Shown one piece after another: positions 21,420-29,900 of a DNA stretch of 64,000 nucleotides. How positions within the stretch are numbered: the first letter of the stretch is position 1; the number at the start of each line of letters is the position of its first letter. Origin of the DNA: Nitrososphaerota archaeon (lineage in GTDB: Archaea; Thermoproteota; EX4484-205; JAAOZP01). The position numbers were made by a program, and so were the translations under genes. Location of the stretch: NCBI GenBank assembly GCA_011605725.1, contig JAAOZP010000017.1, positions 288,001 through 352,000 of the forward strand, in the 5' to 3' direction. The notes under the pieces are model-generated. The model did no database searches and was not told the DNA's origin. It worked only from the letters and a program-made list of their open reading frames with translations.

Positions 21420-24400
21420 TTAAGCATCACTAGCTATCGAAACACTCAGCTTCCTGACAAGCGCCTTGTCGAAGACCTTCCTCTGCTTAAACTCCTCCTG
21501 CTTCCCCTGGTTCCACTGCTCTACGGGTCTCAGATAACCGACGACCCTCGAGTACACTTCTGTTGTTCTTCCACACTTTGGACACGTGTGCTGCTCTCCC
21601 GAGAGATACCCGTCCTCCGGGCAAATGCTGAAGGTTGGTGTAAGCGTGAAGTAGGGCAGCTTAAAGTTTTCACAAATCTTCCTCACCAGTGACGCGACGG
21701 ATTCAACTGGAGGGTTGCTTTCGCCTAACCACACGTGAGCCACAGTCCCCCCGGTGTATTTTGTTTGAAGAGGATCCTGGAGTCTAAGGTACTCCCAGAG
21801 GTCGTCAGTATAGTAGACGGGCAGGTGGGTTGAGTTCGTGTAGTATGGTGCAGCACCCTTCTTAACCTCCTCCTCGTTCGCAACAATTATGCTCGGGTAG
21901 GTTTTCTTATCTATCCTCGCGAGCCTGTGTGAAGTCCCCTCTGCCGGGGTGGCCTCAAGATTGTATATACTCCCGGTTTCCTCCTGGAAGTCTTGGAGTC
22001 TCTTCCTCATGTAGTCTAGGACTTTGATTGTGAAGCTGAGGCCTTCTGGGTCGCCGATGCTGCATCCTAGGAAGTTTAGGCAGGCTTCGTTCATGCCGAT
22101 TAAGCCTATTGTGCTGAAATGGTTTTTCCAGTATTGGCCGAAAGCCTCCTTGATGTGTCTCAGGTAGAACCTGGAGTATGGGTATAGGCCTGCCTCCGTG
22201 AATTTTTCAAGCCATTTCCTCTTGATTTCTAGGACGTCTTTCGCGAGGACCATCATCCTGTCGAGCCTGGCGAAGAACTCGCCCTCGCTCTTCGACAGGA
22301 AGCCTATCCTAGGCATGTTTATCGTGACGACGCCTATGCTATTGCCACACCAACAAGATTTGCCGTTTCTTCTAACCATTATCACGTGGTTAGGAACTTC
22401 TACGCAATACACCTTCCCCTTGTAATATACCTTGCTGATGTTTCTTTTCCTTAGCCTGTAATATTTAGATTTTTGTACTCCTATTGTCCAGCATTTTTCA
22501 GTATTTATAATTCTTCCTTTTATTTTCGCTCTCTTTTTGCTCTTTCTTATAGATGAAATCATCCCTATCTTTAAAATTATTTCTTGCATGTCTGCAGCCA
22601 ATCTGTCTGAGGAAGTCCAGTAAGTAGTTTGACCAGTAGTTTTCCTTATATGACCATTTCCCTTCACCATCCAATCGAATAAAATTTTCAGCTGTCTTGC
22701 ACTTAAATTCTTTATTTCTTGAGGTATGTACTTTTCATATTTATTTCCAAATTGTCTAAGGTAATTCCAAAGCTGTTTATTGCAAATAACAAAGCTGCGA
22801 GCTTCTTCGCGATAGTTGAAAGGCAACCTATCTAGCAGCTCTTTTATTTCTTTCCTCTTCTTTCTATTAACTTGAGTAATAAAGATTCTGTAGCCATGCT
22901 CTGCAGCAATATTTTCATTATCAACGCTGCCTTCAGTAAGCCAGATACCGAAAAACTTTAACCAGTCATCCATTTTTATTTTTAAGGGCTGAGTTTCATA
23001 TCTTACCCTCGTCCTTTCTTCATTTCCGTATTTTTCTTTAGTACAAATATTGTAGACAGTTACAGGATCACAGTCAAAGTTCTCAGCTATCTGATAAATG
23101 CTCACTCCCTCGGTTTTTAACTTTCTAATTGCTTCCAATTCCTCTTTCGAGAATCTAGAAACAGGTCCTGTGCCACTGAGAATCTCTACTGAAGGCAAGA
23201 CAAAATATTCTTCCTCGTTCCCATTCCAAACACCTTGCTTAGGAATTCTATGCGAGTTTGGATTAAAATCTTTTGCTTCTACAAACTTGTTCCTCCATAC
23301 TTTTCCATCCCGATATTCAACAAACATTCTATGGTTTGGTGTTACTAAAAGGTCTAAGGATTTATGCTTAAAACGAATCATTTCTCCATCCCAATCATAT
23401 TCAAAAATTCTAATCGGCTTATGAATCTCTATTGTTCCATCTTGTTTCCTTGTGAAAATTTCGTCTTCAAGAGTGAGATCTTTAAATTTCTTCCAACCTT
23501 TTGTCGTAAGAATTTCTGTTTCCTCATCATAACACCCGGTTAGGGGGTTGGCGCCGAATAGGCCTCCGCCCCTCTTCTTCAATTCTCTTTTGTCGAGCCT
23601 CAAATGGCAGCAGTTATGCGTAATGTTTCCGAGAGAATGAATAAACAAGTGGTTCCTTTCAAGCTCTACGTCAAAAAACTCCTGTTCTTTTTCAAGCTCT
23701 ATTAACTCACATTTTTTCACTCTTACGAACATTATGTCCCCGTTAATGAATTTCTTGCTCTCCTTAGTATGCGCATCATATCTGGATAGAGTTTCCACTC
23801 CAACCATCCTACTCTTGTTTAAGCCAGGCACCGCATAAGTCGATTTCGCCATCCGCCCAGGAACTCTTTCAAATAGAGTTGGAGTAGCTTGATTACCAAT
23901 CGAGTTTATTTTCGATTTTTTATGCTGGATGTAGATTCTTTGGCTTTTCCTCTTCTCCTTATAGCAAACGGGTATCCCTAATATGGTGAACAGGATTGCC
24001 AAATCCCGCGCCAATTCCCTATCATTAAGATGTATCTCTTTATTTCTCTCGTAACCATCACCTAGGAAGAAGTATTTTAGAAACGCTTTTATAACTGTTG
24101 GCGGAGAATTAAAAATCACTTGTGGCAACCTCCCGTATTTTTTGAATCCAGCATTATAGAAAGCTCTTGCAATGTCTGTAGAATAAACATAGAAGTAACG
24201 AGTATCATATCGCGTATCCTCTTTCTCTCTAACCGAACACTTTAATACGTCTTTTATAAGTTTTTTAACCTTTTTTCTCAACAATGGATTATTATTCCCG
24301 AAAGTGAATTGTAATCCTTTTGGCAACCTATAGGTCTTCAAGTTCTTTCTATTTTCAAAAAGATAGTTTCCATCAGCCGTGAAGAAACCTAATAACTCCG

Positions 24401-27400
24401 CAAGCTTCTCATCGAGAACAAAGCTTCCGATCTTCTCATAGTTGGTAGCGAGAGCGTGACACGAAGATTTTAAAGTTAAAACTATGTCGCCAGGTTTTAC
24501 GTCCTTCGCTAATTTATTGACTATTCCATTTATTGTAACAACGGGAATTAAATGATTTCTTGAGACTCTGATTGTTTTACCGTCTTCTGTAACTATTTTT
24601 ATCATCTTATTATCAGTGACCTTCAGAAAGCGTTTGACCTTCACCCATTCTGTTTTCCAAGTTTCTGGATTAAGAGATAGAACCTCGACTTCTTTAACAG
24701 GATCAGCCCACCCATCGTTTTTAAATTCTCCAGCATATTTTTCAACTACTTGACCTATAGTTTCTCTTCTCACACTTCCACTATTTCTAATCAAAAGTTC
24801 TTCATCAGGGTGCAAACACATTGAGCGAACGTCTTCAGGATTCATGTCGGAGTTGATGAAGTTTGCGAAGTATGGTATTCCGTATTTCGCGGAGGTTTCT
24901 AATACTGTTCTAGTGGTTTCATCGTTCCATTCGAAATCCCTGGTTATGTTTATGGTTGGGATGGGGAAGGTATTGTGGACTAGCAATTGATCGGCAACGA
25001 AGTTTTCGCTTTCTGTAGAGAAATCATAAACCATGCCATTAGAAGGAGTTGCCTTTTCGATTTTTTTGATCTTCAAAAATAGAATATTATTCTTCTCCAC
25101 TTCCTTTAAAGCTGGAGGAATTTCGATTTTTAACCTTTTCGCATATTCAATCACGTTTTTAACCTTTTGTAGAGAAGTAGAATTGGAATGCGAGATTCCA
25201 AATTTCTTAGAGATTCTGATTTTCGTATTTCGATATTTCCTGCCTAAAGAATCGAAATAATACGGTTCTTTTTCTAATATTTTCTCAAAAACCATTTCTA
25301 GGCCGCTTTCCTTTATCGGAATTTTGGAAATGCTGTATGAATCCTTGGGATGCAGTTTTCTATCTCGCCAGACAGTTATTCTCCATGTTGGTTTTCCATC
25401 TCGATAATACTCGGTTAAAGTATGGAAAACTCCTAATTGCTTTAAAAGAACAGAGATACCATATATTAGCTCTCGCGAAACAGAGTTGACAACAATGTTT
25501 TCAGTTAACCAAGCATCACCCTCAAAATAGGCGAGGAGGAAACTTTTTTTAATTTCTTGCGGAGCTTCGAAAATTATCTGAGGAACCCTCCTTCCAGTAC
25601 CGGTCCCAACCTTAAATATTTCAGTTATTACCATTCTCAAGAGTTTTGAATGCACTCTTACCTCTATCAGGTTCCTATCCTTAACTTCGCGTAGGCAGAC
25701 GGGAACCCCACGGAAGATTCTCCTTACTAATTGGGCTACGCGGATAGCCTTTTCTCTCTCTTCTTTCAGGTTGAACCCCAAGCTTATCCCACCTTTTTCA
25801 GCTGAACCCTCAGCGCAATAATACCCTAAGAACTCTGCTAATTCTTTTGTCAGTGGAAGAAGGTTCCTCAACTTTATTGAAGACCCTCTAAGACTTAACT
25901 TCGCCTTTGACAAGTCGAACTCGCTTAAGTAAGCTATATTTTCCAGCGGAAAAACCGGGACATCGTAGGAGTATTCATAGATCCGCTTACCGTATTTCCG
26001 CCTTTGTACAGCTTTTCTAGTTTCCCTGTAGAGTTTTCCCCCTTTGTAAACATCCCTTATGTAAACTCCTCTTACCCCATTCTTAGCAAATTCATTGGCC
26101 AGAGAAATCACCTGGGGCTTTCTTTCTTCTAAGGGCATGAATTTCGGCATGATTAGATAATCACCCTTTTGCAACATTGACGCTTTGAAGCTTTGAAGCT
26201 TTCCCTCTTTCAACACCATAACTGAATGGGAAGGGGTAACCTTAATGTTAAAGCCGCCGCCCGTAAATATTTTTAGAAGACTTTCTGTTGGATGACGAAC
26301 CAGAAAGTTTACTTTGCACCAGTCTATCTTGCCGTCTTTTAATCCTAAGGCCTTTATATCCTGAGCCCTTACGTCTAAAACTTCACAATTGTTTTCCTTG
26401 ATGTAAAGCGGTTTTCCTTTTTCCATCCATTCATCGATATACTCTCCAATTTTTACTAATTTCATCCGTCCAGAATTCTTTATTGGACACAGGCATTCCC
26501 CATCAACACTAAAGACTCTTCCGACAGCGTCTCCCTCAAGCATTACCTCGGCGAGAGCCCTGTTGAAAATATTCATTTCCTCCTGGAATTCCCCGTAGGT
26601 GGCGTCTAGAACCTCCCCGCCTATTATGACGGGTTCGTCACGCATGAAGCCCGGAACCTTGAGGTCGAGTGTCACATTTGAGAAGGGCGTGTTATGGAAA
26701 ACCAGGAGTCCAGCTCCTCCAATAAAGTTCTCTTGAGGCAAATCAACCGAGATATCGTATTCATATTCTTTATCATAGTTGAACTTTTCAACGCCTAGGC
26801 AAATCCTTGCTTCGAAGTCATTAACAAAGTATGTTTTCTTCGGTTTTGAATTTTCTTTGAAAATTCGAATTACGAACCTGTCTCGCCAATTTTTATTATT
26901 CCTATTGAGTTTTTCAGTGTAAACGGCGAATCTAAAATTGTTTTGGCTTAGAAGCAGACTTAGACTTGTGCTCAGTTTTCTCGATGTAGTTAAATAATCC
27001 CAATATTTCGAATATTCTGAACCATCGCCTTTCAGAAGGGTTTTAATAAAGATCTTCTGATATTTGGGAGAAAGGTTGAAGATAAACCAAGGAACAACTT
27101 TATTAAATGATAGGTAGCCGCAGGTTCTGCTAACGACTTCCGCTAAGAGTCCTCTTCCAGTTATTTCAAGAACTGTTTTAGTTTTTCTTCCATTTCTAGA
27201 ATATCCTTTGCCGCGAGCCACTTGACCTAAGGCATTTAAAGCCCTCAAAAGCTTGATGATGTCTCTTGCGTTTTTAGAAGGCGGTTGAGAAACATAGAGG
27301 GGAGTCGAAATAGCTGTATGACCTTCAGAAATATACCAAGCACAAAGTTTTACGAAGTTTTCAAGTAGCTTCCCATTTAAAAACCTCGGATACCATACAT

Positions 27401-29900
27401 CGCTATTCTTAAGTTTAAATTCAACCTTCTGACTCAGATCCCCGTATTTTCTCCAGACGTCGTACCGGATTGATTTTTCCTTTAACCAACTTTCCCAGAT
27501 TCCCCTATCCTTAATTCCAAACTCCTTGTAAAACGGTACGAGGCTCTGCTCTTCCAAAATGATTCTCTCTCTGACTCTTTTCAAAGTATGCGTAGGGTTT
27601 ATCTTAACAAAAACATTCTTTTGAAGACGGGGAAGCTCGTCAATGATTTCCACCAAGTCTATTTCCTCCTTCCTACCTTGATTTTCCAACGACCTTAAGG
27701 CAATGAAGTGGTTTTCTTCGTTCAGATGACGATAATCGTCAGCTATCTTAACATCCTCAGCCGATTTCGGCACTGGATTAAATTCACCGTTAAATCTTGA
27801 GAAGCTGAATAGAGAATGGGCTTTTGAAACCCTTGCCTCGCCACGGTTAGTTCTGATTCTTACGAACTCAGAGTTCTTAGGAACCCTATGCCTTACGAAT
27901 GCTTTAACCCTTGTCCAAACAGCTTTCCCATCTGGATTAAAAGATAAAACTTGGTAATCATCATGGTTCTCCAAGGCATAGCTCTGAGGATGCTTCTCAA
28001 TCACCCTGTAGGGATATTTTTCGAATTCACGGTCAACCAGCCTACCGATCTCAACAACTTTAACCTTCCCCCTCTCCTTAATAACTATTGGCTCATCCCA
28101 GCATAGGCTTTGGAAGCCGACCCTGGTTGGAATGTTCATGTTGAACATGAATTCTTGAAGAGCCTGCTTCACCGACTTGTAGTCGAGCCCGTCGTGTCTT
28201 ATGAAGGGTGCGAGGTAGGTGTCGAAGTTTGAGAAAGCCTGGGCTCCAGCAGCCTCCCCCTGTAGGGTGAACACGAAGTTCACAACATGGCCTAGAGCTA
28301 CTCGGAAATGTTTTGCAGGCTTTGCTGAAACCTTGCCCCTGACTCCTCTAAAACCAGTCATTAAAAGGTCTCTTAAATCCCAGCCTACGCAGTTGCCGGA
28401 TACGACAACTCTACCATTTCTTTCCACGAGTAGAGTCCCATTAGGCACAGTTAGATCGTAAACCTTCCCTTTATATTGAACCAGCTTAGGGTGTTTATTG
28501 AAGATCGGAGTGAGCTGCTTTGTTTGTACTGAAACTATGAATCTCTCGCCATCCCATCTGAGGGTCCCGCTCTTTCCGATTTTTAAAAGACATTCCAACA
28601 CATCTTCAGCGAGTTTTTTCGATCTTGTGGAGAATCTCCTTAATTTCCCATTTTCTATAGTCCCATCCCCCTTAAAGAGGGCAGAGAGAAATATCTCAAT
28701 TTTCTCAGGATCTAAATCCTTAATAAACCGAGGAACAAACTTCTCATCCGATTTTCCGAACTGTTTTAAATAGAAGTAGAGCTCCTTTGAGCAAAACTGA
28801 ATGTGGTCCTTCTCGCTTAAGTTTGGAGAAAACCCTAACCTCTTAATCAGAGAGGCTATCTCCCTTCTGTTTTTCTTATTCCTTTGGCCTATGGAGATTA
28901 TGTAGTCGGGCGAGTTCCTGTCTTTCCTGTCGTGTCTCCAAGCGTTCCCCTCCGCTAGGTACCACCCCATGAACTTGAGAAAAACTTCCATCGGAATCCT
29001 CTTTATGTGTCTTAGCCTATTTCCACCCTTTACCACAGGAATTTGAAAGAATTTAGAATTTCCGCCTCTCCATTTTACCTGTTTAAGAAATTCTGACCTC
29101 CTCTTAAAATTAGTTGGGTTTATGAATTTCCATTTCTTATCTCCTCTTTCTCTGACTAACAACCTGTGTTCAGGCGTTACTCTGAGGCTTAACGACCTGC
29201 TCTCGAAGCAGAATAAAGGACCGGAGTACTCAAATACCTGTTTATCTATGGGATGCTGGTACTCCAAATAACCAGTTTTCAGGTTAACCGTAGCGACCTC
29301 GTCTTGAAGTGTTACGTCTTTAAAGAACTTAAAGCCCTCTTTTGTTAAAACTCTAGTTTGATCGTCAAAGCAGTACGGCCCAAGTATCCCGAGGTTGTGA
29401 ATATGGAAGTCGCCGTTCAAATGGGCTTCCCTTATCTCTGTCCTACCCTTGTTGAAAATCCTGTGAAGCCAGTATTGAGAGATGACTTGAGAAGAAATGT
29501 GGAAGTTTAAAGCCTGCAGCGAGTATGTCGTGTTAGCGTTCTCCTTAACCAGCCAGCTCTTGTTCTCGAGATAGCTGTCGACGAACTCCCTTATCTGAGC
29601 GTGAAGCGCCCTGTAAAGAATGTATGCTTTAGCAACATTGTAGAGATTATTCTCTACGAGTATTTTTTCAACTAGGTCCTGAACCTGCTCAACGTGAGGG
29701 ATTTCGCCGGGCTTCAGCTGTTTCCCTAAGCGTTCAACAACCTGGTTTGAAAGCCTCTCCGCCAGAGCCCTGTCCTGTCCGCCGACGGACTTTATAGCCT
29801 TCCATATCGCTTCAGTAATCTTCTGCCGGTCAAACTCTACTACTCTACCATCCCTCTTAATTATTTTGCTTGGAATGCTGTCTGAATCAATCAGTGACAC
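21420..29900 (-). CDS. nrdD: Anaerobic (class III) ribonucleoside-triphosphate reductase with ATP-cone and five inteins
   Basis: ATP-cone IIKRDGR; exteins GDFHIH..GPYC, GAQAFSNFDT, FPIPT, SMCC, GSIGVVTINMPR, NLEATPAEG, YYTNS, YTGGT, Zn ribbon, glycyl-radical loop RVVGYL; 713-aa extein after removing inteins. Confidence 0.97.
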   Translation of the reverse strand: MSLIDSDSIPSKIIKRDGRVVEFDRQKITEAIWKAIKSVGGQDRALAERLSNQVVERLGKQLKPGEIPHVEQVQDLVEKILVENNLYNVAKAYILYRALHAQIREFVDSYLENKSWLVKENANTTYSLQALNFHISSQVISQYWLHRIFNKGRTEIREAHLNGDFHIHNLGILGPYCFDDQTRVLTKEGFKFFKDVTLQDEVATVNLKTGYLEYQHPIDKQVFEYSGPLFCFESRSLSLRVTPEHRLLVRERGDKKWKFINPTNFKRRSEFLKQVKWRGGNSKFFQIPVVKGGNRLRHIKRIPMEVFLKFMGWYLAEGNAWRHDRKDRNSPDYIISIGQRNKKNRREIASLIKRLGFSPNLSEKDHIQFCSKELYFYLKQFGKSDEKFVPRFIKDLDPEKIEIFLSALFKGDGTIENGKLRRFSTRSKKLAEDVLECLLKIGKSGTLRWDGERFIVSVQTKQLTPIFNKHPKLVQYKGKVYDLTVPNGTLLVERNGRVVVSGNCVGWDLRDLLMTGFRGVRGKVSAKPAKHFRVALGHVVNFVFTLQGEAAGAQAFSNFDTYLAPFIRHDGLDYKSVKQALQEFMFNMNIPTRVGFQSLCWDEPIVIKERGKVKVVEIGRLVDREFEKYPYRVIEKHPQSYALENHDDYQVLSFNPDGKAVWTRVKAFVRHRVPKNSEFVRIRTNRGEARVSKAHSLFSFSRFNGEFNPVPKSAEDVKIADDYRHLNEENHFIALRSLENQGRKEEIDLVEIIDELPRLQKNVFVKINPTHTLKRVRERIILEEQSLVPFYKEFGIKDRGIWESWLKEKSIRYDVWRKYGDLSQKVEFKLKNSDVWYPRFLNGKLLENFVKLCAWYISEGHTAISTPLYVSQPPSKNARDIIKLLRALNALGQVARGKGYSRNGRKTKTVLEITGRGLLAEVVSRTCGYLSFNKVVPWFIFNLSPKYQKIFIKTLLKGDGSEYSKYWDYLTTSRKLSTSLSLLLSQNNFRFAVYTEKLNRNNKNWRDRFVIRIFKENSKPKKTYFVNDFEARICLGVEKFNYDKEYEYDISVDLPQENFIGGAGLLVFHNTPFSNVTLDLKVPGFMRDEPVIIGGEVLDATYGEFQEEMNIFNRALAEVMLEGDAVGRVFSVDGECLCPIKNSGRMKLVKIGEYIDEWMEKGKPLYIKENNCEVLDVRAQDIKALGLKDGKIDWCKVNFLVRHPTESLLKIFTGGGFNIKVTPSHSVMVLKEGKLQSFKASMLQKGDYLIMPKFMPLEERKPQVISLANEFAKNGVRGVYIRDVYKGGKLYRETRKAVQRRKYGKRIYEYSYDVPVFPLENIAYLSEFDLSKAKLSLRGSSIKLRNLLPLTKELAEFLGYYCAEGSAEKGGISLGFNLKEEREKAIRVAQLVRRIFRGVPVCLREVKDRNLIEVRVHSKLLRMVITEIFKVGTGTGRRVPQIIFEAPQEIKKSFLLAYFEGDAWLTENIVVNSVSRELIYGISVLLKQLGVFHTLTEYYRDGKPTWRITVWRDRKLHPKDSYSISKIPIKESGLEMVFEKILEKEPYYFDSLGRKYRNTKIRISKKFGISHSNSTSLQKVKNVIEYAKRLKIEIPPALKEVEKNNILFLKIKKIEKATPSNGMVYDFSTESENFVADQLLVHNTFPIPTINITRDFEWNDETTRTVLETSAKYGIPYFANFINSDMNPEDVRSMCLHPDEELLIRNSGSVRRETIGQVVEKYAGEFKNDGWADPVKEVEVLSLNPETWKTEWVKVKRFLKVTDNKMIKIVTEDGKTIRVSRNHLIPVVTINGIVNKLAKDVKPGDIVLTLKSSCHALATNYEKIGSFVLDEKLAELLGFFTADGNYLFENRKNLKTYRLPKGLQFTFGNNNPLLRKKVKKLIKDVLKCSVREKEDTRYDTRYFYVYSTDIARAFYNAGFKKYGRLPQVIFNSPPTVIKAFLKYFFLGDGYERNKEIHLNDRELARDLAILFTILGIPVCYKEKRKSQRIYIQHKKSKINSIGNQATPTLFERVPGRMAKSTYAVPGLNKSRMVGVETLSRYDAHTKESKKFINGDIMFVRVKKCELIELEKEQEFFDVELERNHLFIHSLGNITHNCCHLRLDKRELKKRGGGLFGANPLTGCYDEETEILTTKGWKKFKDLTLEDEIFTRKQDGTIEIHKPIRIFEYDWDGEMIRFKHKSLDLLVTPNHRMFVEYRDGKVWRNKFVEAKDFNPNSHRIPKQGVWNGNEEEYFVLPSVEILSGTGPVSRFSKEELEAIRKLKTEGVSIYQIAENFDCDPVTVYNICTKEKYGNEERTRVRYETQPLKIKMDDWLKFFGIWLTEGSVDNENIAAEHGYRIFITQVNRKKRKEIKELLDRLPFNYREEARSFVICNKQLWNYLRQFGNKYEKYIPQEIKNLSARQLKILFDWMVKGNGHIRKTTGQTTYWTSSDRLAADMQEIILKIGMISSIRKSKKRAKIKGRIINTEKCWTIGVQKSKYYRLRKRNISKVYYKGKVYCVEVPNHVIMVRRNGKSCWCGNSIGVVTINMPRIGFLSKSEGEFFARLDRMMVLAKDVLEIKRKWLEKFTEAGLYPYSRFYLRHIKEAFGQYWKNHFSTIGLIGMNEACLNFLGCSIGDPEGLSFTIKVLDYMRKRLQDFQEETGSIYNLEATPAEGTSHRLARIDKKTYPSIIVANEEEVKKGAAPYYTNSTHLPVYYTDDLWEYLRLQDPLQTKYTGGTVAHVWLGESNPPVESVASLVRKICENFKLPYFTLTPTFSICPEDGYLSGEQHTCPKCGRTTEVYSRVVGYLRPVEQWNQGKQEEFKQRKVFDKALVRKLSVSIASDA
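22341..23534 (-). mobile_element. nrdD intein 5 (398 aa, LAGLIDADG, HTH insert)
   Basis: LTG|CYDEETEILT...VTPNH...GIWLTEG...MVKGNG...VYCVEVPNH...CGN|S. Confidence 0.92.
23613..24818 (-). mobile_element. nrdD intein 4 (402 aa, LAGLIDADG)
   Basis: RSM|CLHPDE...SRNH...GFFTADG...FFLGDG...FFDVEL...THN|C. Confidence 0.92.
24972..26510 (-). mobile_element. nrdD intein 3 (513 aa, LAGLIDADG)
   Basis: RVF|SVDGEC...VTPSHS...GYYCAEG...YFEGDA...VYDFST...VHN|T. Confidence 0.92.
26691..28109 (-). mobile_element. nrdD intein 2 (473 aa, LAGLIDADG)
   Basis: GFQ|SLCWDEPI...SKAHS...WYISEG...LLKGDG...YEYDISV...FHN|T. Confidence 0.92.
28392..29372 (-). mobile_element. nrdD intein 1 (327 aa, LAGLIDADG)
   Basis: GPY|CFDDQTRVLT...VTPEH...GWYLAEG...LFKGDG...VYDLTV...SGN|C. 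Confidence 0.92.

What the first reader, a model, noticed from the sequence alone, without database searches (positions are those of the whole stretch)
21420..29900. Five homing-endonuclease inteins in one class III RNR
Seen: inteins of 327, 473, 513, 402 and 398 aa (2113 of 2826 aa) separated by exteins of only 94, 60, 51 and 26 aa. Intein DNA is visibly more AT-rich than extein DNA, consistent with foreign origin. Known: RNRs are intein hotspots, but five in one gene is at the high end. All five must splice for dNTP synthesis. I saw no inteins elsewhere in the window.
Basis: partly seen in the sequence, partly recalled or inferred. Interest (0 to 1): 0.8.

Follow-up and report, generated by a model that had tools for sequence, protein, structure and literature searches.

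The report
Five inteins in one archaeal NrdD
The gene for the oxygen-sensitive enzyme that makes DNA building blocks in this hot-spring archaeon really is interrupted by five self-splicing protein parasites (inteins). That equals the highest number described for any protein, but it is an extreme case of a known phenomenon, not a new mechanism.

Summary
Confirmed. The ORF at 21420-29900 (minus strand, 2826 aa) is a class III ribonucleotide reductase (NrdD) with an ATP-cone. It holds five in-frame inteins of exactly 327, 473, 513, 402 and 398 aa.

- **Boundaries.** Removing the five in silico gives a 713-aa protein that aligns without gaps, at 93% identity, to an intein-free orthologue of the same genus.
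- **Genus series.** The 13 genomes of this genus (mates are named Brockarchaeota) that hold the gene carry 0, 1, 2, 3, 4 or 5 inteins at these same five sites. Only 2 of about 57 orthologues elsewhere in the phylum sample carry any.
- **Motifs.** All five keep the splicing motifs. Four keep both endonuclease catalytic acids; I5 has Asn in the second motif.
- **Insertion sites.** Two inteins sit directly before catalytic cysteines.
- **Histories.** I1 and I2 co-diverge with the host gene. I3 looks recent and is missing from a 99.7%-identical allele. I4 and I5 are old, diverged lineages.
- **Not unique.** Public metagenomes hold at least five other five-intein NrdD clusters, and none of those examined has six.
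- **Literature.** The highest counts I found described are four for prokaryotes and five for a eukaryotic Prp8.
- **Correction.** The genome also encodes a B12-dependent RNR, so "all five must splice for dNTP synthesis" is overstated.
- **Open point.** A chimeric assembly is unlikely but cannot be excluded without reads.

The parts
21420..29900 (-). nrdD precursor ORF, 2826 aa plus stop: class III ribonucleotide reductase with five inteins
29373..29900 (-). Extein 1 (176 aa). Includes the ATP-cone (aa 12-101, nt 29598-29867) and ends in GPY.
28392..29372 (-). Intein I1, site a, 327 aa. Cys1, block B TPEH, ends SGN, +1 Cys. LAGLIDADG motifs at 28947-28973 (E) and 28662-28688 (D).
28110..28391 (-). 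Extein 2 (94 aa)
26691..28109 (-). Intein I2, site b, 473 aa. Ser1, block B SKAH, ends FHN, +1 Thr. LAGLIDADG motifs at 27321-27347 (E) and 27021-27047 (D).
26511..26690 (-). Extein 3 (60 aa)
24972..26510 (-). Intein I3, site c, 513 aa. Ser1, block B TPSH, ends VHN, +1 Thr. LAGLIDADG motifs at 25806-25832 (E) and 25512-25538 (D). The most recent arrival.
24819..24971 (-). Extein 4 (51 aa)
23613..24818 (-). Intein I4, site d, 402 aa. Cys1, block B SRNH, ends THN, +1 Cys. LAGLIDADG motifs at 24369-24395 (D) and 24054-24080 (D).
23535..23612 (-). Extein 5 (26 aa). Starts with the CCHLRL motif (23595-23612), which aligns with SCCR of the T. maritima enzyme.
22341..23534 (-). Intein I5, site e, 398 aa. 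Cys1, block B TPNH, ends CGN, +1 Ser. LAGLIDADG motifs at 22929-22955 (E) and 22653-22679 (N in place of D). An HTH-like insert lies at about 23049-23150. Paralogue of I1 (30.6% identity).
21423..22340 (-). Extein 6 (306 aa). Holds the Cys-rich zinc-ribbon motif (21570-21623) and the glycyl-radical motif RVVGYL (21531-21548).

Best explanation
The gene encodes an NrdD precursor of which three quarters is intein. Inferred mechanism: after translation, each of five independent class 1 inteins (Cys or Ser at position 1, a T/SxxH block B, a C-terminal Asn, and Cys, Ser or Thr at +1) excises itself and ligates its flanks. The product would be a 713-aa NrdD that the separately encoded activase NrdG converts to the glycyl-radical form.

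The inteins sit in the most conserved active-site motifs. I1 lies directly before the cysteine equivalent to T. maritima Cys125 (T4 Cys79). I4 lies directly before the first Cys of the essential SCCR motif.

The pile-up comes from separate histories at five sites:
- I1 and I2 have been inherited with the gene since early in the genus.
- I3 spread recently by homing and is still polymorphic within the species.
- I4 and I5 belong to old, diverged intein lineages that replace one another at the same site.

Four inteins keep an apparently intact LAGLIDADG endonuclease. That of I5 is probably impaired.

Shown: anatomy, exact boundaries, motifs, population polymorphism and purifying selection. Inferred: actual splicing, endonuclease activity and homing.
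For: Identity of the gene. NrdG2 activase elsewhere in the genome: 223.5 bits against a cut-off of 131.

Exact boundaries and colinearity with intein-free orthologues.

Presence or absence at identical codons across the genus: abcde in G000, abcd in G016, acd in G002, ab in G006, be in G010, d in G007, e in G008 and G012, and none in five genomes.

Splicing and LAGLIDADG motifs.

Profile support:
- I3 and I4 pass the PF14890 cut-off, and I1, I3, I4 and I5 pass PF14528.
- The I2 profile hits PI-PkoII at 4e-13.
- hhalign gives 99.8% probability of homology between the I2 and I3 families.

Active-site mapping.

Purifying selection: dN/dS is 0.03-0.11 in exteins and 0.05-0.14 in inteins.

Separate histories:
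- Against G002, dS is 0.23 for exteins, 0.28 for I1 and 0.078 for I3, and saturated for I4 (72% nucleotide identity).
- I5 is 54-62% identical to genus alleles whose exteins are 91-92% identical.

The same-species allele P0003 and its relatives (2313 aa, at least 8 assemblies, 99.7% identical) lack exactly I3.

Other five-intein alleles:
- P0121 and P0124 are full-length five-intein ORFs recorded on other contigs. Each differs from this protein at 3 residues, and not at the same three.
- A JGI contig with different I2 and I4 lineages (L114).
- The N-truncated P0127, 92% identical.
Against: - No experimental evidence exists for splicing or homing.
- I1 and I5 end in Gly-Asn rather than His-Asn. 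This is invariant in 41 of 41 family members, so it is a family trait rather than decay.
- I2 on its own falls below the Pfam cut-offs, and its AlphaFold model was uninformative (pLDDT 33.8).
- The genome is a metagenome-assembled genome. I3 plus 90 nt of extein 3 and all of extein 4 are nearly identical to those of a co-existing allele type, so an assembly chimera is formally possible.
Confidence: 0.88

Rival explanations
1. Assembly chimera. The organism really carries the four-intein allele (a, b, d, e), and the assembler threaded I3 from a co-occurring strain through the short shared exteins 3 and 4.
For: - The allele equals the common 2313-aa allele plus an I3 whose protein is identical to that of another allele type, P0122.
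- A tract comprising the last 90 nt of extein 3, all of I3 and the 153 nt of extein 4 differs by one base from L114, and is flanked by diverged sequence on both sides.
- These exteins are about as long as a read.
Against: - The 2826-aa ORF is recorded on contigs of 438 kb, 144 kb and 55 kb. P0121 and P0124 each differ from it at 3 residues, partly different ones, in I1, I2, extein 3 and I4.
- Two further five-intein alleles exist with other intein lineages (L114; P0127).
- The shared stretch to the left of I3 is only 90 nt relative to the L114-type allele, which is below the largest k-mers assemblers commonly use (my own knowledge, not tested).
- Recent homing with co-conversion predicts the same pattern.
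- Unrelated five-intein NrdDs show that the architecture is viable.
Confidence: 0.07
2. Dead precursor. One or more inteins no longer splice, NrdD is non-functional, and the class II RNR supplies the dNTPs.
For: - A second RNR (NrdJ) is present.
- I1 and I5 lack the penultimate His.
- The endonuclease of I5 is degenerate.
Against: - The frame stays open over 8.5 kb.
- Every splicing nucleophile, block B His and terminal Asn is intact.
- Extein dN/dS is 0.03-0.11 and intein dN/dS 0.05-0.14.
- Extein GC3 is 0.62, near the top of the genome's range.
- The NrdG activase is retained.
- The Gly-Asn ending is universal in that intein family, including bacterial members.
Confidence: 0.04
3. Domesticated, conditional inteins. 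Splicing, especially of I1 and I4, which have Cys1 and a catalytic Cys at +1, is gated by redox state or temperature, so that NrdD matures only under anoxia. This adds to the main explanation rather than excluding it.
For: - I1 and I4 use catalytically essential cysteines as their +1 nucleophiles.
- I1 and I2 have co-diverged with the host gene under strong purifying selection.
- The paper read notes suggestions that inteins in replication, transcription and translation proteins may have acquired a regulatory function.
Against: - Five congeners do well with no intein at all, and every partial combination occurs. This is the signature of selfish presence/absence polymorphism, not of a fixed regulatory device.
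- Insertion at conserved catalytic motifs is the general rule for inteins.
- Nothing here tests conditionality.
Confidence: 0.1

Closest known systems
Trichodesmium erythraeum ribonucleotide reductase with four inteins (Liu, Yang and Meng 2003, as cited in PMC10710043)
   Same: An RNR gene invaded at several conserved sites by independent inteins. PMC10710043 cites it as the earlier maximum of four inteins described for a single protein.
   Different: It is a bacterial gene. By my memory it is a class II RNR, and per the cited title it also carries three group II introns. It has four inteins where this gene has five. Here the host is a TACK archaeon and the enzyme is the glycyl-radical class III RNR.
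Anaeramoeba ignava Prp8 with five inteins (PMC10710043)
   Same: Five inteins in one protein, described there as remarkable. It is the only published five-intein protein I found.
   Different: A eukaryotic spliceosomal protein with unrelated insertion sites.
Haloarchaeal MCM with four intein sites (PMC10643990)
   Same: Several neighbouring homing sites in one essential gene. Alleles carry different combinations, and single-intein alleles serve as stepping stones.
   Different: A different host protein and phylum. That paper's table lists no multi-intein gene in 56 crenarchaeal, 18 thaumarchaeal and 1 korarchaeal genomes.
Other five-intein NrdDs in public metagenomes: P0024 (2983 aa), P0066 (2631 aa), P0120 (2612 aa), P0014 (2517 aa), and P0015 (1575 aa, five mini-inteins, Candidatus Magnetomoraceae)
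   Same: The same enzyme, partly the same sites (180, 274, 334, 385, 411) and the same intein families, for example C-Y-D-E...W-C-G-N before SIGVVT.
   Different: Other phyla, and other site combinations that include sites 233, 369, 546 and 609. I found no paper describing them.
PI-PkoII (Thermococcus kodakarensis Pol intein endonuclease, PDB 2cw7)
   Same: The best solved-structure relative of I1 (2.5e-6) and of the I2 profile (4.2e-13). It is a Hint splicing domain plus a LAGLIDADG endonuclease.
   Different: The host protein is a DNA polymerase, and sequence similarity is low.
Thermotoga maritima NrdD (PDB 4coi, 4u3e)
   Same: The extein part is a homologue with the double-Cys motif. Cys125 and the SCCR motif align with the GPY|C and SM|CC junctions.
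   Different: The T. maritima enzyme has no inteins, and the 651-aa crystallised chain aligns only from query residue 128, so the ATP-cone region finds no counterpart in it. This genus reads CCH where T. maritima reads CCR.

Membership tests
Class III ribonucleotide reductase (NrdD) | Curated family profiles matched above their cut-offs | tested here: met
   PF13597 scores 554 bits (cut-off 26.2). NF006126 scores 914.8 (cut-off 548). TIGR02487 scores 474 (cut-off 326).
Class III ribonucleotide reductase (NrdD) | C-terminal glycyl-radical motif and Cys-rich zinc ribbon | tested here: met
   RVVGYL is at aa 2785-2790 and the motif C-x13-C-x2-C at aa 2760-2777. In the alignment of the genus orthologue to 4coi, these regions align with the T. 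maritima glycyl-radical and zinc regions.
Class III ribonucleotide reductase (NrdD) | Active-site cysteines (T. maritima Cys125, and Cys329/Cys330 of SCCR) restored in the spliced product | tested here: met
   The junctions GPY|C and SM|CC rebuild both motifs in silico. Their roles are taken from PMC4493059.
Class III ribonucleotide reductase (NrdD) | Radical-SAM activase NrdG encoded in the genome | tested here: met
   TIGR02495 matches at C1:277399-277962 with 223.5 bits (cut-off 131).
Class 1 intein with LAGLIDADG homing endonuclease | In-frame insertion absent from orthologues at the identical codon, whose removal restores colinearity | tested here: met
   This holds for all five sites. 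Empty and occupied alleles both occur within one genus.
Class 1 intein with LAGLIDADG homing endonuclease | Cys or Ser at position 1, block B T/SxxH, C-terminal Asn, and Cys, Ser or Thr at +1 | tested here: met
   I1 is C/TPEH/N/C. I2 is S/SKAH/N/T. I3 is S/TPSH/N/T. I4 is C/SRNH/N/C. I5 is C/TPNH/N/S.
Class 1 intein with LAGLIDADG homing endonuclease | Penultimate His | tested here: not met
   I2, I3 and I4 have it. I1 and I5 end in Gly-Asn, and so do all 41 of 41 members of each of those families. From memory, some characterised inteins splice without this His, so it is a usual feature rather than a strictly defining one.
Class 1 intein with LAGLIDADG homing endonuclease | Two LAGLIDADG motifs, each with a catalytic Asp or Glu | tested here: inconclusive
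   I1 to I4 have both acids. The second motif of I5 has Asn, where the family shows Asp in 36 of 41 members.
Class 1 intein with LAGLIDADG homing endonuclease | Match to curated intein or endonuclease profiles | tested here: met
   I3 and I4 pass PF14890. I1, I3, I4 and I5 pass PF14528. I2 qualifies only through its family profile: PI-PkoII at 4e-13, and hhalign to the I3 family at 99.8%.
Class 1 intein with LAGLIDADG homing endonuclease | Protein splicing and site-specific DNA cleavage demonstrated | not testable with these tools
   This needs expression and cleavage assays.

The most novel reading that the evidence does not exclude
This Brockarchaeota-type genus is a natural running experiment in intein dynamics. 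One essential gene occurs with 0 to 5 inteins. One intein (I3) is caught in mid-spread. Old intein lineages turn over at fixed sites. Beyond that, the long-resident inteins that use catalytic cysteines as splice nucleophiles (I1, and perhaps I4) may gate maturation of the oxygen-sensitive enzyme by redox state, dividing labour with the B12-dependent RNR.
Probability: 0.1. Interest if true: 0.7.

Novelty: new member of a known kind. Interest (0 to 1): 0.45.

Why it matters
Five inteins in one protein equals the highest number I found described, and exceeds the four described for prokaryotes. It occurs in a TACK archaeon, a group for which a 2023 survey listed no multi-intein gene.

More useful than the count is the context. 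Thirteen congeneric genomes give every step from 0 to 5 inteins at the same five codons, with separable vertical and horizontal histories. This is ready-made material for three questions:
- how neighbouring inteins help or hinder each other's homing;
- how short an extein (26 aa) can be between two inteins;
- whether splicing at catalytic cysteines is conditional.

The case also shows that NrdD of this lineage has about a dozen distinct insertion positions by my mapping. The deposited annotation seems to miss the architecture: a 653-aa NCBI entry corresponds to the last 653 residues only.

Tried and rejected
- **AlphaFold2 model of I2.** It was built from a four-sequence alignment and gave mean pLDDT 33.8, which is unusable. 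No fold search was run.
- **The look-up of encoding contigs.** One metagenome scan replaced it. That scan gave four loci, including another five-intein allele.
- **Literature searches for more than five inteins.** Searches for 'six', 'seven' or 'eight inteins', for 'multi-intein', and for surveys from 2023 to 2026 found no claim above five per protein. Novikova et al. 2016 has no NrdD count. The RNRdb paper gives only a total of about 80 RNR inteins.
- **Homing-site 'immunity'.** I compared ±18 nt around each site between empty and occupied alleles. There are only scattered synonymous differences and no clear resistant allele, so nothing can be concluded.
- **Mapping against InBase site names.** I could not do this because InBase is not available here. 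From memory, the M. jannaschii anaerobic RNR carries two inteins. This was not checked.
- **Pseudogene reading.** I considered and rejected it on the open frame, the intact motifs and the low dN/dS.
Full report
**1. The observation**

A single open frame runs from 29900 down to 21420 on the minus strand (2826 codons, GTG start). Pfam and NCBIfam identify it as an anaerobic ribonucleoside-triphosphate reductase. PF13597 matches at E=5e-166 in five separate stretches, NF006126 scores 914.8 bits against a cut-off of 548, and an ATP-cone lies at residues 12-101. Intein_splicing, LAGLIDADG_3 and Hint matches lie between the NrdD stretches.

Anchoring on the conserved flanks gives five insertions of 327, 473, 513, 402 and 398 aa.

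**2. Are the boundaries right?**

The window's genome (2.23 Mb, 20 contigs, 93% complete) has congeners whose NrdD frames are 708 to 2431 aa long. I fetched these genes and aligned them.

- The in-silico spliced product (713 aa) aligns with the intein-free orthologue of G009 (715 aa) as one HSP spanning 701 residues in both sequences, at 93% identity.
- A multiple alignment places every insertion at the same five codons: site a at GPY|C, site b at GFQ|T, site c at RVF|T, site d at RSM|C and site e at LTG|S.
- The occupancy patterns are abcde (this genome), abcd (G016), acd (G002), ab (G006), be (G010), d (G007) and e (G008, G012). Five genomes have none.
- The DNA at the junctions confirms codon-exact insertion.

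These are therefore true insertion/deletion polymorphisms of discrete elements. They are not divergent domains of the enzyme.

**3. Are they inteins with homing endonucleases?**

All five have the class 1 hallmarks:

| Intein | Position 1 | Block B | C-terminus | +1 residue |
|---|---|---|---|---|
| I1 | Cys | TPEH | SGN | Cys |
| I2 | Ser | SKAH | FHN | Thr |
| I3 | Ser | TPSH | VHN | Thr |
| I4 | Cys | SRNH | THN | Cys |
| I5 | Cys | TPNH | CGN | Ser |

- I1 and I5 end in Gly-Asn instead of His-Asn. All 41 of 41 relatives in each of those two families do the same, so this is a lineage trait and not decay.
- Each intein has two LAGLIDADG motifs. I1 to I4 carry Glu or Asp at both catalytic positions. 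The second motif of I5 has Asn where 36 of 41 relatives have Asp, so its endonuclease is probably impaired.
- On their own, I3 and I4 pass the PF14890 cut-off, and I1, I3, I4 and I5 pass PF14528.
- I2 alone is below the Pfam cut-offs. A profile of its four genus copies hits the PI-PkoII intein endonuclease (2cw7) at 4.2e-13 and TFIIB mini-inteins at about 1e-8. An hhalign of the I2 family against the I3 family gives 99.8% probability.
- An AlphaFold model of I2 from the shallow alignment failed (pLDDT 33.8).
- I1 and I5 are paralogues (30.6% identity, E=4e-45). A third member of their family sits in another gene 5.7 kb beyond the window.

**4. Where in the enzyme?**

I aligned the intein-free orthologue with T. 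maritima NrdD (4coi). By my count on that alignment:

- site a lies directly before Cys125;
- site b lies at Gln224|Ser225;
- site c lies at Phe280|Thr281;
- site d lies directly before Cys329 of the SCCR motif;
- site e lies at Gly367|Ser368.

According to PMC4493059, Cys125 is the conserved cysteine of the reductive half-reaction (T4 Cys79, E. coli Cys175). The same paper reports that C329A and C330A each abolish activity. I1 and I4 therefore use catalytically essential cysteines as their +1 splice nucleophiles. The flanks of all five sites are nearly invariant across phyla, which is the usual intein preference for conserved motifs.

**5. Composition**

- Overall GC is 0.386 in the inteins and 0.501 in the exteins.
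- GC3 is 0.39 in the inteins and 0.62 in the exteins. Genome ORFs of at least 350 aa have mean GC3 of 0.51 with sd 0.065.
- The difference is real and lies mainly at synonymous positions.

**6. Separate histories**

I measured synonymous divergence from this genome and pairwise identities.

- I1 and I2 track the exteins. Against G016, dS is 0.80 for exteins, 0.74 for I1 and 0.81 for I2. Against G006 the values are 1.09, 1.20 and 0.96. They have been inherited with the gene.
- I3 is younger than its host's divergence from G002 (dS 0.078 against 0.23). It is older than the divergence from G016 (2.58 against 0.80).
- I4 is only 72% identical in DNA to the I4 of G002, although the surrounding exteins are 92-99% identical.
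- I5 is 54-62% identical in protein to the site-e inteins of G008, G010 and G012, whose exteins are 91-92% identical.
- dN/dS is 0.05-0.14 in the inteins and 0.03-0.11 in the exteins, so the inteins are constrained, not decaying.
- In the public protein collection, an allele 99.7% identical over the shared 2313 residues lacks exactly I3 (...GRVF|TFPIPT...). It occurs in at least eight assemblies. I3 is therefore the latest arrival and is still polymorphic within the species.

**7. Is the five-intein allele an assembly artefact?**

*Arguments for a chimera.* The allele equals the four-intein allele plus an I3 whose protein is identical to that of another allele type. At the DNA level, the last 90 nt of extein 3, all of I3 and all of extein 4 differ by one base from that type, and are flanked by diverged sequence.

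*Arguments against.*
- The full 2826-aa ORF is recorded on contigs of 438, 144 and 55 kb. P0121 and P0124 each differ from this protein at 3 residues, partly different ones.
- A 10-kb JGI contig (L114) carries all five sites occupied, but with the other I2 and I4 lineages.
- P0127, 92% identical and cut at its N-terminus inside I1, is a further five-intein allele.

Recent homing with co-conversion predicts the same tract. I put the chimera at about 7%. Only reads can settle it.

**8. How unusual is it?**

*Literature.*
- PMC10710043 (2023) states that a maximum of four inteins had been described for a single protein (Trichodesmium RNR, with further cases in archaeal MCM). It calls five inteins in Anaeramoeba Prp8 remarkable.
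- Searches for higher numbers and for newer surveys found nothing above five.
- PMC10643990 lists no multi-intein gene in 56 crenarchaeal, 18 thaumarchaeal and 1 korarchaeal genomes.

*Databases.*
- 148 NrdDs of 1554 to 4946 aa matched. By my mapping of the 120 listed representatives, 41 have two inteins, 60 have three, 13 have four and 6 have five. None has six.
- Inspection of the junctions confirms five inteins in P0024 (2983 aa), P0066, P0120, P0014 and P0015. P0015 is a 1575-aa bacterial protein with five mini-inteins.
- By my mapping, the insertions fall at about a dozen distinct positions.

*Phylum sample.* Among 401 genomes, 70 have a close orthologue. Outside this genus only two of these have an enlarged frame, each consistent with one intein. 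Inside the genus, 8 of the 13 with the gene are invaded.

The case is therefore a record-level member of a known kind. It is not unique in unpublished data, and it is concentrated in one genus. Congeners are named Candidatus Brockarchaeota archaeon and come from hot-spring metagenomes.

**9. Genome context**

- The activase NrdG2 is encoded on another contig.
- A B12-dependent class II RNR (TIGR02504, 712 bits) with one intein of its own is also present. NrdD is therefore not the only route to dNTPs.
- Further inteins sit in RtcB, SMC and a TIGR00375-family protein. That makes nine inteins in five genes.
- The neighbours of nrdD in the window are a signal-peptide peptidase, SurE and a KaiC/RadB-like ATPase. 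They are unrelated to it.

**10. Verdict**

- a second RNR exists, so dNTP synthesis does not depend on NrdD alone;
- AT-richness does not equal recent arrival;
- one endonuclease is probably dead.

The mechanism is ordinary protein splicing and homing, inferred from intact motifs, purifying selection and population polymorphism. It has not been shown experimentally.

The same scan had noted this stretch before in another window (e1-5613724). It had also noted a phage nrdD with five introns and one intein on other DNA.

Noticed in passing
G000:C7:357663-358754 (L111:4664-5755), 5.7 kb beyond the window's end: A third member of the I1/I5 intein family (35% identical to I5, 33% to I1). It sits in an 818-aa frame whose exteins match the TIGR00375 family of hypothetical proteins.
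   Followed up: partly
G000:C9:46759-50559 (L108:2759-6559, minus strand): A second ribonucleotide reductase, adenosylcobalamin-dependent class II (TIGR02504, 712 bits) with an ATP-cone. It is itself interrupted by one LAGLIDADG intein, so both RNRs of this genome depend on protein splicing.
   Followed up: partly
G000:C9:4741-7695 (L109) and G000:C17:20657-24574 (L110): RtcB tRNA ligase (985-aa frame) carries a large intein. An SMC protein (1306-aa frame) has a weak, short Intein_splicing match near its N-terminus (33 bits, below the cut-off), which may be a mini-intein.
   Followed up: partly
G000:C9:21173-21412, C12:239-808, C11:60740-60979: LAGLIDADG_3 matches in short frames (311, 271 and 111 aa) that are not in intein-sized host proteins. 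They may be free-standing or intron-encoded homing endonucleases.
   Followed up: no
window 23049-23150 (I5 residues 129-162): I5 carries a helix-turn-helix-like segment (HTH_38 E=1.8e-4, HTH_23, HTH_7) that the shorter paralogue I1 lacks. It may be an extra DNA-binding module.
   Followed up: partly
L016:4420-5838 (I2 of congener G016): In this orthologous I2 the first LAGLIDADG motif has Gly in place of the catalytic Glu (YVSGG against YISEG here). That copy's endonuclease appears inactivated while the splicing motifs are kept.
   Followed up: no
protein P0131 (NCBI, 653 aa, contig of 438353 nt): The NCBI protein entry on what appears to be the same contig equals only residues 2174-2826 of this precursor, starting inside I5. 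The deposited annotation therefore seems to miss the five-intein gene.
   Followed up: partly
protein P0015 (1575 aa; NCBI name: Candidatus Magnetomoraceae bacterium gMMP-15): A bacterial NrdD with five mini-inteins of 141-249 aa at sites 274, 334, 369, 385 and 411. It is the endonuclease-free counterpart of the architecture seen here.
   Followed up: partly
window 23595-23612: The finger-loop motif reads CCH in every member of this genus, with or without inteins. T. maritima and most other relatives read CCR or CR.
   Followed up: no
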